In this document: one piece after another, positions 2,551 to 57,082 of the stretch
Numbering within the stretch: the stretch's first letter is position 1
Layout of the letters: the number at the start of each line of letters is the position of its first letter
Assembly (NCBI GenBank): GCA_951406725.2
Contig: OX597817.1
Location: forward strand, 120,032,001 to 120,096,000
DNA length: 64,000 bases
Direction of reading: 5' to 3'
Source: Octopus vulgaris
Taxonomy: Eukaryota
Position numbers and translations under genes: made by a program
Notes under the pieces: model-generated
Told to the model about the DNA's origin: nothing
What the model saw: the letters and a program-made list of their open reading frames with translations, nothing else
The model's database searches: none

Positions 2551-3210
2551 ATCATCATCATCATTGCCATTTAACATCTGCTTTCCATGCAGGCAAGGGT
2601 TTGACTGTTTGACTGAGGACTGGCGAGCCAAAAGGCTGCACCAGGCTCCAATCTGATCCGGCAAAGTTTCTTCAGCTGGATTCCCTTCCTAATGCCAAAC
2701 ACTCTGAGTAGGTGCTTTTTACGTGCCACTGGCATGAGAACCAGTCAGGTGGTACTGGCAATGACCATGTTCAAAGGGTGTTTTTACATGCTACCTGCAC
2801 AGGAGCCAGTCTGGTGGCACTGGCAATGACCATGCTCAAATGTTCTTTTTCAAGTGCCACTGGCATATGTGCCAGTAAGGCGATACTGGCAACAAACATG
2901 CTTGAATGGTGCTTTTTATGTGCCACCAGTATGGGAGCCAGTCAGCAGCCCTGGCAACATTCACGCTCAGATGGTGCTTTTAATGTTCCACTGGCATGAG
3001 TGCCAATCAGGCGGTACTGTCATTGGTCACATCAGCGATTTTGATTTCATTTGCCTCAACAGGTCTTTGCAAACAAAGTTTATTGTCCAATGAATGAAGG
3101 GTACTCATAAGTGGGCTGGTTATACACCACTGGCATAGACCATGGGTCAATGCCTCACTTGGCTTGTCGGGTCTTCTCAAGCACAGCATATCTCCAAAGA
3201 TCTCGGTCAC
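2551..3210 (-). mobile_element. 5'-truncated RTE-clade LINE (ORF C-terminus, 3'UTR with ~60-bp internal repeats, (ATG)n tail)
   Basis: Minus frame ends DRDLWRYAVLEKTRQAK* (RTE-type DRxxWR terminus); same 3' end recurs at 10.6, 24.1, 29.9, 48.2, 56.8 and 60.7 kb. Confidence 0.75.
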
Positions 3211-24096: not shown

Positions 24097-25372
24097 TCAT
24101 CATCATCATCATCATCATTTAACGTCCGCTTTCCATGCTAGCATGGGTTGGACGGTTCAACTGGGGTCTGGGGAGCCCGAAAGCTGCACCAGTCCAGTCA
24201 GATCTGGCAGTGTTTCTACAGCTGGATGCCCTTCCTAACGCCAACCACTCCGAGAGTGTAGTGGGTGATTTTATGTGCCACCGACACAGGTGCCAGACGA
24301 GGCTGGCAAACGGCCACGCTCGGATGGTGTTTTTTATGGGCCACCGACACAGGTGCCAGACGAGGCTCGCAGACGGCCACGCTCGGATGGTGTTTTTATG
24401 TGCCACCGACACAGGTGCCAGATGAGGCTGGCAAACGGCCACGATCGGATGGTGCTTGCTACGTGCCCACAGCACGGAGGCCAGTCGATGCGGCACCGGC
24501 TACGGCCACGTTCGGACGGCCCCTTGTGTGCCACGTGCCACCGGCACTGGCACCACAAAGATACAAATTCCATTGATGTTCATCTATTTTGATTTGTTTT
24601 GATTTTCACTTACCTCAACAGGTCTTCACAAGTGTCACAAGAAGGAAGGTATGCACAGGTGGACTGACTACGTCCCAGGTAGGGGCCATGGGTTATGGCC
24701 TGACTAGTCTTGCCGGGTCTTCGGATGGTGTTTTTATGTGCCACCGACACAGGTGCTAGATGAGGCTGGCGAACGGCCACGATCGGATGGTGTTTGTCAT
24801 GTGCCCACCGCACTGACTACAGCACTGATGGATTTCTTGTGTGCCACAGGCACTGGTACCACAAGATACAAATTCCATTGATGTTCATCTATTTTGTCTA
24901 TTTTGATTTGATTTGATTTGATTTTCACTTGCCTCAACCGGTCTTCACAAGTGTCACAAGAAGGAAGGTATGCACAGGTGGACTGACTACGTCCCAGGTA
25001 GGGGCCATGGGTTATGGCCTGACTAGTCTTGCCGGGTCTTCGGATGGTGTTTTTATGTGCCACCGACACAGGTGCCAGATGAGGCTGGGGAACGGCCACG
25101 ATCGGATGGTGTTTGTCATGTGCCCACAGCACGGAGGCCAGTCGATGCGGTACTGGCTACGGCCACTTTCGGATGGTTTTCTCTTGTGTGCCACCGGCAC
25201 TGGTACCACAAAGATACAAATTCCATTGATGTTCATCTATTTTGATTTGTTTTGATTTGATTTTGATTTTGATTTTCACTTGCCTCAACAGGCCTTCACA
25301 AGTATCACAAGGAGGAAGGTATGCACAGGTGGACTGACTACGTCCCAGGTAGGGGCCATGGTTTATGGCCTG
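24097..25372 (-). mobile_element. RTE LINE 3'UTR in tandem multimer (~62-bp subunits inside three ~300-350-bp units)
   Basis: (CAT)n tail at 24097; 'agatacaaattccattgatg' recurs at ~24560, 24864 and 25211; GC-rich and little diverged. Confidence 0.8.
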
Positions 25373-27541: not shown

Positions 27542-27969
27542 CATTGGGCTATTCCTGCTTGACACATCAGGAAAAGCTTTCATTTGTGTACATTTCACTA
27601 TTCATAGGGACAATGCTCTAGCTTTAGCTAAGAATACCAATGGACCAACACAAGATCAGTAAAGAGAAGGATATTATCAATCTTATGAAAACATTTGATC
27701 TTAGCATAACAATAGAAACCAGCCTGATTGTTGTCAATTTCCTTGACGTATCTCCAGATGTACAAAATGATATTTACAAACCCTACAGAAAGCCCAACGA
27801 TAAACTTAGTTATATTAATGTAGGTTCCTGCCACTTCCCCCACCCATAGTGTTTAAGAATTTACTTAAGAATATTAATAAGAGAATTTCTAACCTCTCCT
27901 CCAATATATTCATATTTAATAATGCTGCCCCACTATATAACTATGCCCTTAAACCTAGAGAATTTAAAG

Positions 27970-50095: not shown

Positions 50096-51421
50096 ATACT
50101 TTGATACTTTGATACTTTGATAGGTTTCGGCCATTATTGGCCCAGGCCATGTCTAACTTAATAGCACCACCTGGTGAAGTCTTTCAAGTCAGAATTTGGG
50201 CACTATGGCCCACTCAAGTAGAGAGTTATTGTTTACAGAGACATATCTGGGTGTAGGGGGTTTATCCGGGATTTCTTGAAGGAATCTGTCCAAAGACTTC
50301 TTGAACCCTATAGGGTCAGTTTCTGTTTTAATGTGTTTTGGTGTAATGTTAAAGAGAGCGGGGCCAATTGAGGTGAAATAATTGTGCCGTATTGTTGTTA
50401 TGAGATGAGAGTGCGATTTTTGTTTTGGGCAGATGGCACGGGGCCCAAGCCTTGGATGTACCTTAAAGGTGATGACAACATCATTTGGGCAATGCTGATG
50501 GAATATTTTCCACATCATGCAGATGATGTAGCGCTCACGACGACGTTGGAGAGAATAGAGTTTTAGCTTTTCTAGTCGACCCCAATAGTCGAGGCCTGTC
50601 ATGCCATCTATCTTTTTTGTGATTGCCCTTTGAGGTGCTTCAACTCTTATGATACCTTGTATTGTGTGGGGAGACCACAGTGGACAACAGTATTCAAGGT
50701 GGGGTCGGGCAAAAGTGGAGAAGAGAATGATAATGGTGTGGATATCTCTCGACTGGAAAGTTCTGAGAATCCAGGAACACATTCTGCGGGCCATGTCAAC
50801 TTTGGTGTTTATATGAGTGGCCCAGCTTATGTTGTTGTCCACAATTACTCCCAAGTCTCTGATGTTGTTGGACGCCGCGAGAGTTTCACCTGAAGGAAGG
50901 GAGTATGGGAGTTTCAGGGCATCCTCTTTTCCAAAGTGGATTAACTCAAATTTATCCTCGTTCAGCAGCATATTGTTTTTTTCTGCCCATTGGATAACAG
51001 CCAGTAGATCTGACTGAAGGCATGTCCGGTCACTCGCCTCATTTATGACCTTCAGTAGCTTGGAGTCATCTGCAAAGATTTTTATGTTGCTGTGCTTGAT
51101 AATGTCATTAATGTAAATGATGAAAAGAAGTGGGCCCAGCACAGTGCCTTGCGGAACGCCACTACTGACTTTGGCTGGGCTTGATTTTACCCCTTCAACT
51201 ACAACATGTTGAGATCTGTCTGTCAGGAAACACTTGATCCATTTCAGTAACTTCCCAGAGACACCAATGTTGGATAGTTTTTTCAATAGGATCTTGTGAT
51301 CGACCCTGTCGAAGGCCTTACTGAAATCAAGGTAGATGACATCGGTGTTGGAGCCCTCTCCCAAAGCTCTCAAAATGTCCTCAAAGTGACGCAGGAGCTG
51401 CGTTAGGCAGTCCCTTCCATT
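50096..51421 (-). mobile_element. 5'-truncated CR1-clade LINE inserted in (TA)n
   Basis: RT ORF, short 3'UTR and 8-bp (TATCAAAG)3 tail; TA-rich microsatellite on both flanks. Confidence 0.9.
50189..51421 (-). CDS. Reverse transcriptase (CR1-clade LINE ORF2, C-terminal ~410 aa; no true start)
   Basis: [48 protein letters not shown] motifs, uninterrupted; the N-terminal YI stretch of the called ORF is microsatellite. Confidence 0.9.
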
Positions 51422-51550
51422 ATATATATATATGTATATATATACATATATATATATGTATATATATACATATATATATATGTATATATATATAATATAT
51501 ATATAATACATATATATATATATATGTGTATGTATATATATATACATATA

Positions 51551-51639
<89 letters not shown>

Positions 51640-51697
51640 TATATATTTATCAATATATATATATGTATATATATATAATATATATATATATTTATCA

Positions 51698-54149: not shown

Positions 54150-55555
54150 ACACACAGCCACGCCTGATGTATATATGCATCTGTGTGTGTGTGTGTTCAA
54201 AATTAAATATATGAATTTAACAGAAACTTATTGACATACATCTGCCATTGCTAGGACAAATAAAGGTACATTGCCTGTAAAATTAAACAGAAAGTCAGTG
54301 GAATATATTTCACTGTACTTGGTCTCAATATTAAAATTGAGAAACAATGGTTTTGTAATTCATAAACATTGAATTTATAGTGGACAAGAATGATATATCG
54401 TAATAGTTTTCAATGATTTTACATTATTGAAATGCCTTGCATTATGAATTGTAATCTCTAGTTTGTGGCAATTAATATTATTCTCATCATGCGCAGGAAT
54501 GTCTATTATGCACATCATGACCAACATAAACATACACACATGCATCCATCCAAGGAAAAGTTCTGTCTGAGCCATTAGAATTCTCATCCACGAGAATTTA
54601 ACCTATCCTGAGAGACTTCTATATAGACGTGTATATACACATTATATATAATGTGTGGCCATGTGTATGTGTGGGAGGTGTATGTACAAATAGATGGAAA
54701 GATAGACAGAAGGTACATGCACACACACACACATGGGTCATGCTATAGACATTACAATCTGTTTTGGTGAATTTTGATACATATACATAGACACACACAC
54801 AAATATATATATACACAAACACACACACAAACATATACAAATATACTTATACACACATGTACATACACAGTCACAAATACATACACACACACAAACATTT
54901 ATATCTTGTTCATACTTAGTTTATCTTACAAATTCATTGTCTTCATAAGCAGATGTAAAGTGATAAGGTACTGAACAGAACAACTCACTAACCCAACTAA
55001 AAATAATAAATATTTTACATTATAACTCAGTATTACAAAAGAGAAATTCACTGTTAATCTTCATTCTTATTCTATCTTTAAGTCAGTTTCAATTTTGAAA
55101 CAAATTTAAGTAAAATGAGCTGGAAATCTTTTATTGTCATCATTTTAACACCTACTATTCCATGCTTGCATGGCTTCGATGAAGTTTTATTGAGGCAGAT
55201 TTTTTCTTATGACCAGGCACATTTTCTGTCACTGACCTTTCACCTGTTTCCAAACAAGGTGATATTTTGCACGGCCTGACATGTACTCAGTATATTGGAG
55301 ATGAATGACACTGCTTGTATGACAGTGACAATCATTTACAACTATTACATAATATTAAGAAAAAGAGAGACAATCACACATACATCCAATCCCCATATAT
55401 ATATATAATAGGCACTAAATGTGACTAGGGTGTTAAAAAATACCTACATTGCTAGAAATAAGAGCTAAAATGCTCTAATGTTGCATGTAACGCACATGAA
55501 TGAAAACATACATTAACAGGGACCATAAACGTCAGAAAAATACTGACCGAGAATT

Positions 55556-55606
55556 CTTAAGACTGATGCATCAGTTTTGGCAATATCCATTGCCATCATC
55601 AGTGTT
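55556..55606 (-). ncRNA. Type I hammerhead ribozyme motif (G12>A)
   Basis: CTGATGA-T-GGCAAT-ggat-ATTGCC-AAAA-CTGATGCATCAG-TC^TTAAG. Confidence 0.7.
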
Positions 55607-56016
55607 CAGCTACTCTTCAGACAGGTTTCCCTATTAGCATATATGTTTGCATCATCCAAATTAATGGATGATTTAACGATTTGGTAATGTGTATACAGAA
55701 AATTAATATAAACAGCAGGTTGCAATGTTTCACCAAAAACGAGAATTATAATTGTCACTAAATGTGACTAGGGTGTTAAAAAACACCTACATTGTTAGAA
55801 ATAAGAGCTAAAATGCTTTAATGCTGTAGTTAATGCACATGAATGAAAACGTATACACTAATAGGGACCATAATTGACTGAAAAATGCAACCTTCTGTTT
55901 ACATTAATCTTGTGTATACACATTAACGAATCACTAAATCATCCATAAATTTTGGATGATGCAAACATACATGTTAAAAGATAAACAGATGCGGAAATAG
56001 CCAAACACCAAGCTGG

Positions 56017-56066
56017 CTTAACTGATGATGGCAATGGAAATTGCCAAAACTGACATCAATCTTAAG
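56017..56066 (+). ncRNA. Type I hammerhead ribozyme motif (G12>A, stem III eroded)
   Basis: CTTAA-CTGATGA-T-GGCAAT-ggaa-ATTGCC-AAAA-CTGACATCAA-TC^TTAAG; stem I CTTAA/TTAAG. Confidence 0.7.
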
Positions 56067-56179
56067 AATTCTTGGTTCATATTTTTCGAACAATTATGGT
56101 CCCTGTTTTGATTCATGACTTAACTGCATCATTGCAATCTGGTGTTTATATTAATTTTATGTAAATATATATATATTTT

Positions 56180-56778: not shown

Positions 56779-57082
56779 CATCATCATCATCATCATCGTT
56801 TAACGTCTGCTTTACATGCTAGCATGGGTTGGACGGTTCAACTGGGGTCTGGGAAGCCAGAAGGCTGCACCAGGCCCAGGCGGATCTGGCAGTATTTCTA
56901 CAGCTGGATGCCCTTCCTAACACCAACCACTCCATTAGTGTAGTGGGTGCTTTTTACGTGACACCGACACAGGTGCCAGACGATGATGGCAAACAGCCAC
57001 GATCGGATGGTGCTTTTTATGTGCCACCGGCACAGAGACCAGATGAAGCTGGCAATGGCCACGAATCGGATGGTGCTTTTTA
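56779..57082 (-). mobile_element. RTE LINE 3' end
   Basis: (CAT)n plus a body nearly identical to 24097-24450. Confidence 0.8.

What the first reader, a model, noticed from the sequence alone, without database searches (positions are those of the whole stretch)
55413..56130. Best-preserved ribozyme locus: two complementary copies reconstruct a complete type I hammerhead
Seen: the minus copy keeps the 14-nt palindrome ACTGATGCATCAGT plus a GUC cleavage triplet. The plus copy keeps stem I (CTTAA/TTAAG), and both share the 6-bp stem II GGCAAT/ATTGCC. Consensus: CTTAA CTGATGA T GGCAAT ggaw ATTGCC (G)AAA CTGATGCATCAG TC^TTAAG. Stem III is long enough to fold as a monomer or pair as a dimer. The layout (full unit, partial tandem unit, inverted unit, no ORF) matches PLE integration products and gives a ~340-nt unit, in the size range of non-LTR retrozymes.
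Basis: partly seen in the sequence, partly recalled or inferred. Interest (0 to 1): 0.75.

Follow-up and report, generated by a model that had tools for sequence, protein, structure and literature searches.

The report
Decayed copy of an old retrozyme
This is one decayed, back-to-back insertion of a roughly 356-base repeat scattered through this animal genome; both of its hammerhead (self-cutting RNA) motifs lack the key catalytic G that most other copies keep, and the family likely spread long ago as a small RNA copied by Penelope-type retrotransposon enzymes, a known kind of element.

Summary
The motifs are there, and the family has GAAA, not AAAA: an 18-mer with G12 occurs 142 times in the genome, the A12 form 17 times. 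The locus is one inverted insertion (55404-56167, between (TA)n runs) of a dispersed, protein-free ~356-bp repeat whose copies are ~80% identical, so the burst is old. It is not well preserved: both hammerheads carry G12A, one lacks the 5' side of stem I, the other has a broken stem III. 29 of 75 sampled loci hold intact cores, so no reconstruction is needed. Insertions show Penelope-like (PLE) marks: two fixed 3' ends about 50 nt apart, the extra tail on one arm only (18 loci, never both), inversions in 38 of 75 loci, TA-rich targets. No partner PLE shares its sequence; expression is not shown. One twist, predicted only: the stem III palindrome can also pair with the catalytic strand, locking the monomer (21 of 29 copies) while a dimer could cut. 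The scan noted similar retrozymes before, in this genome and another. Verdict: new member of a known kind (type I non-LTR retrozyme).

The parts
55394..55405 (.). (TA)n run, left flank (target microsatellite; a target-site duplication cannot be delimited)
55404..55888 (-). Left arm, 1.4 units head to tail: unit positions 224-356, then 1-356, ending about 9 nt further at the family's 3' end A
55413..55756 (-). One full unit (344 bp; 14-nt deletion against the ~356-bp family unit)
55556..55602 (-). Hammerhead copy 1: core, stem II, 14-nt stem III palindrome, GUC; G12A at 55578; 5' strand of stem I deleted
55882..55888 (.). Inversion junction; the two arms overlap by about 7 nt
55882..56167 (+). 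Right arm: unit positions 28 to about 290 with small deletions, an internal deletion across the unit junction, then positions 25-67, ending at 3' end B (the tail)
56017..56066 (+). Hammerhead copy 2: stem I intact, G12A at 56046, 12-nt stem III with G16.2A (triplet AUC)
56125..56167 (+). PLE-type tail, present on this arm only
56163..56175 (.). (TA)n run, right flank

Best explanation
The locus is one decayed, inverted insertion of an old, dispersed, protein-free ~356-bp repeat that carries a type I hammerhead motif, and the family was likely copied from a circular or multimeric RNA by the enzyme of a Penelope-like retrotransposon. Shown: dispersed family, G12 in most copies, compensated pairs in stem I, two fixed 3' ends with a one-sided tail, inversions, more-than-unit insertions, TA-rich flanks, no ORF. 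Inferred: transcripts were cut by the hammerhead into unit-length RNAs and closed into circles; a PLE protein nicked a (TA)n target and began reverse transcription at two internal sites about 160 and 210 nt downstream of the cut site, one from each target strand, ran through the cut site and past one unit length, and the two cDNAs were joined back to back. Both hammerheads at this locus are predicted inactive (G12 is the general base; established knowledge, recalled).
For: Family: 40 of 40 scored candidates match, 1852 first-look candidates (not a copy number). G12 142 vs A12 17, reversed-pattern controls 0; among 32 rows picked by similarity alone 24 have G. Structure on 74 copies: 82.9% of cells paired, 79 double-sided changes vs 48.6 +/- 7.3 in shuffles, slid controls 30-48% paired; distal stem I pair UA 28 / CG 22. 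Layout of 75 loci: 38 inverted; of those ending in A or B on both sides 18 A+B, 5 A+A, 0 B+B; the window is A+B once its weak tail hit is counted. This is the one-sided PLE tail (10.1101/2021.04.23.441226, passages), explained by two internal RT start sites (PMC11167929, parts 1-2 of 4). TA run within 30 nt at 16 of 43 B ends vs 6.5% background. 35 of 75 loci exceed 370 nt on one strand (the first 30 loci were picked for a full unit). Arms of one locus share more rare changes than arms of different loci (1.21 vs 0.47 per 100 nt; 50 vs 8345 non-independent pairs). Intact PLE families exist in the genome.
Against: No cleavage or circle was shown. 5' ends do not pile up at the predicted cut. No PLE tested shares sequence with the unit, so the partner is unknown. 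Covariation lies in stem I; stems II and III have 1 and 0 pairs with double-sided change, pair-level measures do not beat the shuffle (285/500, 293/500), and relatedness inflates the cell count. Rfam: only 1 of 8 intact loci gives a weak hammerhead hit (RF00008, 28.1 bits, below the 48.5 cut-off). No long arrays, unlike several published retrozymes.
Confidence: 0.85

Rival explanations
1. The repeat is the orphaned terminal repeat (pLTR) of a coding PLE; the copies are 5'-truncated stubs of that element, not an independent retrozyme.
For: Same order as in the anole PLE: hammerhead, then two RT start sites downstream (PMC11167929). One subfamily has an ATG at the start of stem II, as there. 10.64898/2026.07.22.740005 (parts 1-3 of 5) derives retrozymes from pLTRs.
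Against: Upstream of the unit lies another copy of the unit, not an ORF: 35 of 75 loci wrap past one unit. No PLE ORF adjoins the unit in sense orientation in the 95 loci tested with four RT fragments; the nearby fragments (L009, L027, L079/L092) are separated by microsatellites or antisense. The ATG is missing in the larger subfamily (46 of 74 lack the inserted base). An origin from a pLTR remains possible.
Confidence: 0.08
2. The ribozyme was never needed for spreading: uncleaved read-through transcripts of tandem copies served as templates, and the motif works mainly as a protein-binding structure.
For: Hammerhead mutants did not affect PLE insertion in vitro (PMC11167929). The window's two arms share G12A and two other rare changes, and both-arm G12A is seen at 3 of 25 multi-arm loci (about 0.6 pairs expected by my rough estimate), as if dead templates were copied. 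The monomer is predicted to be locked.
Against: The core is kept across subfamilies that differ in stem I, stem III centre and cleavage triplet (GUC with the inserted base 26, GUA without it 40, of 74), and both triplets are cleavable types. Shared changes may also come from arm-to-arm gene conversion or chance (CA 13 vs TG 15 of 115 at this CpG).
Confidence: 0.15
3. Chance hammerhead look-alike inside an ordinary palindromic repeat (MITE-like or fold-back).
For: No Rfam hit at the locus; the unit is largely self-complementary.
Against: All core positions are the majority letter, compensated stem I, 0 hits in 30 simulated windows, variable ends with tails rather than fixed terminal inverted repeats.
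Confidence: 0.02

Closest known systems
Metazoan non-LTR retrozymes (PMC7229834; passages and sections 14, 17 read), e.g. mussel 350-390 bp, axolotl 330/350 bp
   Same: Type I hammerhead in a 170-400-nt, low-GC (37%), protein-free, self-paired unit (median z -2.8 as circle, 28 units); head-to-tail copies; co-occurs with PLEs.
   Different: Mostly dispersed 1-1.5-unit insertions, no long arrays seen; old; stem III is 4-5 bp plus a palindromic loop rather than 1-2 bp; predicted self-locked monomer, whereas that paper predicts most animal retrozyme circles leave the hammerhead free (some mussel circles excepted); expression not shown.
PLE insertions with inverted 5'-truncated copy and one-sided tail (10.1101/2021.04.23.441226, passages and section 11; PMC11167929, parts 1-2 of 4)
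   Same: Partial tandems, inversions, two fixed 3' ends, one-sided tail, (TA)n targets as in Neptune, Hydra and Naiad.
   Different: No ORF; tail about 45-60 nt rather than 30-40; no partner identified.
Dimer-acting hammerheads with palindromic helix III in PLEs and newt satellites (PMC4209133, parts 1-2 of 4; PMC6765202, passages)
   Same: Palindromic stem III/loop 3; optional extra base between positions 9 and 10.1.
   Different: Here the palindrome is 12 or 14 nt, long enough for a monomer; its 3' arm is also complementary to the catalytic strand; stem I is long with an internal loop.

Membership tests
Type I hammerhead ribozyme | Core CUGANGA ... GAAA ... NUH | tested here: met
   Family: majority letter at every core position in 74 copies; 31 exact core strings. 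The two window copies fail at G12.
Type I hammerhead ribozyme | Three stems, stem I open-ended | tested here: met
   90-93% of cells paired in stems I-III; compensation in stem I only.
Type I hammerhead ribozyme | Match to an Rfam hammerhead model | tested here: not met
   None at the locus; 1 of 8 intact loci weak, below cut-off.
Type I hammerhead ribozyme | Loop II to stem I tertiary contact | not tested
   A 6-nt loop II and a 4x4 internal loop in stem I are present; contacts not modelled.
Type I hammerhead ribozyme | Self-cleavage | not testable with these tools
   Needs an in vitro assay.
Non-LTR retrozyme | 170-400-nt non-coding unit with one type I hammerhead | tested here: met
Non-LTR retrozyme | Head-to-tail copies | tested here: met
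   35 of 75 loci over 370 nt on one strand, longest 797 nt; two G12 cores in tandem at L062 (the second has a short deletion in stem II).
Non-LTR retrozyme | Expressed as linear and circular monomer RNA | tested here: inconclusive
   Only contigs of runs guessed to be RNA were available; they cannot show circles.
PLE-mobilised element | Two fixed 3' ends, one-sided tail, inversions, variable 5' ends | tested here: met
PLE-mobilised element | AT-rich or (TA)n targets | tested here: met
   16 of 43 B ends vs 6.5% background; both window flanks.
PLE-mobilised element | Sequence shared with an autonomous PLE | tested here: not met
   0 of 27 further Poseidon-like loci, 1 unrelated-looking fragment in 55 GIY-YIG and Hydra-like loci, 0 of 5 full-length stretches; the sample covers three families only.
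Autonomous PLE | RT plus GIY-YIG ORF | tested here: not met
   No ORF in the element.

The most novel reading that the evidence does not exclude
The family carries a built-in dimer switch: the 3' arm of the stem III palindrome pairs over 7 bp with the ribozyme's own catalytic strand, so the monomeric circle is locked off and protected, while two units in a multimer pair through the palindrome and cut. This would be a sequence-encoded answer to how animal retrozyme circles avoid cutting themselves. Support: locked fold in 7 of 7 folds, 21 of 29 intact copies, 7 of 10 circular units with a recognisable core; the natural arm ranks 1-4 of 64 possible arms for locking in 5 of 8 copies, 9-15 in the other 3; palindrome length is 12 or 14 nt in 84 of 87 copies, with centres CG, AT, CGCG, CCGG. 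Against: one ancestral design, no covariation in the arms, a CCGA centre (12 of 100 listed) breaks the palindrome at one pair, the energy gap (median 4-5 kcal/mol) ignores tertiary contacts and Mg, and the dimer gain is small (median -2.6 kcal/mol in 8 best copies, rough sum).
Probability: 0.3. Interest if true: 0.55.

Novelty: new member of a known kind. Interest (0 to 1): 0.3.

Why it matters
The locus itself is a dead copy of an old repeat. The family adds population-level evidence that animal retrozymes are integrated by PLE enzymes: it shows the one-sided tail and inversions that PMC7229834 did not use when proposing PLEs as partners. It also offers a cheap test of a question raised there (what keeps the hammerhead quiet in animal retrozyme circles), using natural intact copies. 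Searches for hammerhead + octopus or cephalopod returned no description of this family; Repbase/Dfam, subscription papers and bioRxiv supplements were not available, so it may be annotated there. Earlier notes of this scan describe similar retrozymes.

Tried and rejected
Rfam: no hammerhead at the locus; microsatellite-driven miRNA hits are noise. RNA: no RNA holder listed. Contigs of four and then two runs guessed to be RNA hold diverged family pieces, mostly the 3'-terminal part, in the same profile as two DNA-like runs, with no deep contig across the hammerhead; contigs cannot show level, ends or circles, so this is no evidence either way. Partner search: RT fragments beside L009 and L027, and the Poseidon-like element beside L079/L081/L092/L093, proved to be separate insertions or a segmental duplication; my notebook label 'Naiad-like' for the L009 protein was wrong, its family has the DKT and CxCX5C marks of Hydra. 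'CpG decay explains everything': only partly; family-wide CpG transitions are 0.128 vs 0.095 per base at other C/G, though 8 of 12 ungapped CpG sites are changed in the window's minus unit. A G12A sublineage: no link with the window's other rare changes. Cleaved linear monomer as template: 5' ends do not cluster at the cut and many arms pass it twice. Conserved ORF from the ATG at stem II: absent in the larger subfamily. One search had a descriptor error and is replaced. Alignment A1 holds 74 of 89 full-span hits (of 102 hits); 15 truncated, rearranged, deleted or duplicate rows were left out, and rows from L031 on were picked by G12-containing patterns. One search's end list includes false hits from the unit's self-complementarity; removes them. 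The Lunse et al. dimer paper was not held. No look-alike earlier finding by sequence.

Full report
Observation. The window lies in a 2.8-Gb genome of 227 contigs; earlier scan notes call it octopus (not checked). A relaxed hammerhead descriptor finds these two sites only, and none in 30 simulated windows. Rfam does not recognise them. Both copies have A where G12 belongs.

The family. The unit matches 40 of 40 scored genomic candidates, others at 77-83%. 28 full units average 80.6% pairwise identity (68-86%) and give a 356-position profile. On 74 aligned copies the three stems are 90-93% paired, and stem I extends through an internal loop into a long rod; double-sided changes (79 cells vs 48.6 shuffled) fall mostly in stem I, while stems II and III barely vary and pair-level measures do not beat the shuffle. 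Two main subfamilies differ in an inserted base after A9 and in the triplet, GUC or GUA.

State of this locus. It is a poor copy. The minus hammerhead lost 14 nt including the 5' side of stem I; the plus hammerhead has G16.2A; both have G12A. The sixth pair of stem II comes from a C-to-T change of the first loop base, and the TGCA centre from two changes in CGCG that happen to keep the palindrome. The two arms share three rare changes including G12A; both-arm G12A occurs at 3 of 25 multi-arm loci. This may mean a dead template was copied, or gene conversion, or chance.

Anatomy of insertions. The window element is a left arm of 1.4 units on the minus strand and a right arm on the plus strand with an internal deletion, joined over about 7 shared bases, between (TA)n runs. 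Across 75 loci the 3' ends fall in two clusters, A just past profile position 356 and B at positions 45-81, about 160 and 210 nt downstream of the cut at 206. 38 loci are inverted; 18 end A+B, 5 A+A, none B+B, 15 are otherwise or partly unresolved. That is the one-sided PLE tail (10.1101/2021.04.23.441226, passages), which PMC11167929 (parts 1-2 of 4) traces to two internal RT start sites downstream of the hammerhead. TA runs follow 16 of 43 B ends against 6.5% background. 35 of 75 loci exceed one unit on one strand, the longest 797 nt. 5' ends scatter and many arms pass the cut site twice, so the template was a circle or an uncut multimer. Copies within a locus are hardly closer than copies of different loci (0.826 vs 0.815), so most divergence came after insertion and the burst is old; they still share more rare changes, as expected from one template. 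20 further loci, picked with a query that covers B, mostly end at B.

Partner. The genome holds an abundant Poseidon-like family, and intact-looking Neptune-like (781 codons) and Hydra-like (717 codons) families (clade names are my reading of motifs given). None shares sequence with the unit. The (TA)n preference points to Neptune, Hydra or Naiad types, probably an older family not sampled.

Mechanism. Shown: dispersed non-coding family, hammerhead core and stems, PLE-type ends. Inferred: self-cleavage, circularisation, copying in trans by a PLE protein from two internal starts, one per target strand, giving back-to-back arms. This follows the model in PMC7229834 (sections 14, 17 and passages) and 10.64898/2026.07.22.740005 (parts 1-3 of 5). 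Expression could not be judged.

The twist. Stem III begins with the same five letters as the catalytic strand, so its 3' arm can pair with the core. The predicted monomer fold is this locked rod in 7 of 7 folds, 21 of 29 intact copies, median 5.3 kcal/mol below the hammerhead, and 7 of 10 circular units with a recognisable core. The natural arm is among the most locking of 64 choices in 5 of 8 copies. The palindrome is 12 or 14 nt in 84 of 87 copies (hand count); of 100 of 181 listed centres 33 are CG, 4 AT, 10 CGCG, 7 CCGG, 12 CCGA (not palindromic), none three bases long (hand count). A rough sum favours the dimer in 7 of the 8 best copies by a median 2.6 kcal/mol. Dimer action through a palindromic helix III is known (PMC4209133, parts 1-2 of 4; PMC6765202, passages); locking by a long stem III in an animal retrozyme did not turn up in searches (listings only). 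It rests on nearest-neighbour folding of one ancestral design, so I give it 0.3.

Verdict. Searches found no paper on this family; repeat databases and closed supplements could hold it. The scan noted similar elements before; my reading was fixed before that look-up. Interest 0.3.

Noticed in passing
L131-L157, about 2400-2750 in ORF orientation: An abundant Poseidon-like PLE family (12,729 first-look candidates, ~87% pairwise identity) whose 3' terminal repeat has a tRNA-like head with A- and B-box-like motifs, an (AAT)n run and a minimal hammerhead.
   Followed up: partly
L188-L213, L217: A very young Hydra-like PLE (717-codon ORF, DKT and CxCX5C marks, 150 scored matches 99-100% identical to the query, tandems about 2.6 kb apart and inverted pairs); no hammerhead found by my descriptors.
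   Followed up: partly
L214-L216: A young Neptune-like PLE (781-codon ORF, ~98% identical copies) with a U3-A8 hammerhead-like motif in its terminal repeat.
   Followed up: partly
window 27546-27753 (+): Fragment of a PLE reverse transcriptase, 62-77% identical to the Hydra-like family.
   Followed up: no
window 50189-51646 (-): Reading frame of a LINE-type reverse transcriptase behind a (TA)n run.
   Followed up: no
L094-L097: A segmental duplication of at least 6-10 kb (96-99% identical, three contigs) holding a Poseidon-like fragment, an antisense retrozyme fragment, a 261-bp palindromic element and a LINE with endonuclease and RT frames.
   Followed up: partly
L095:5008, L153, L165, L201: A second, different minimal-hammerhead-like repeat with a short stem II.
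   Followed up: no
window 55286-55357: A piece of another, far more abundant repeat just left of the element (very high summed contig depth).
   Followed up: no
window 2711-3019, 24264-24454, 56946-57082: A 62-65-bp GC-rich minisatellite unit recurring at three places in the window.
   Followed up: no
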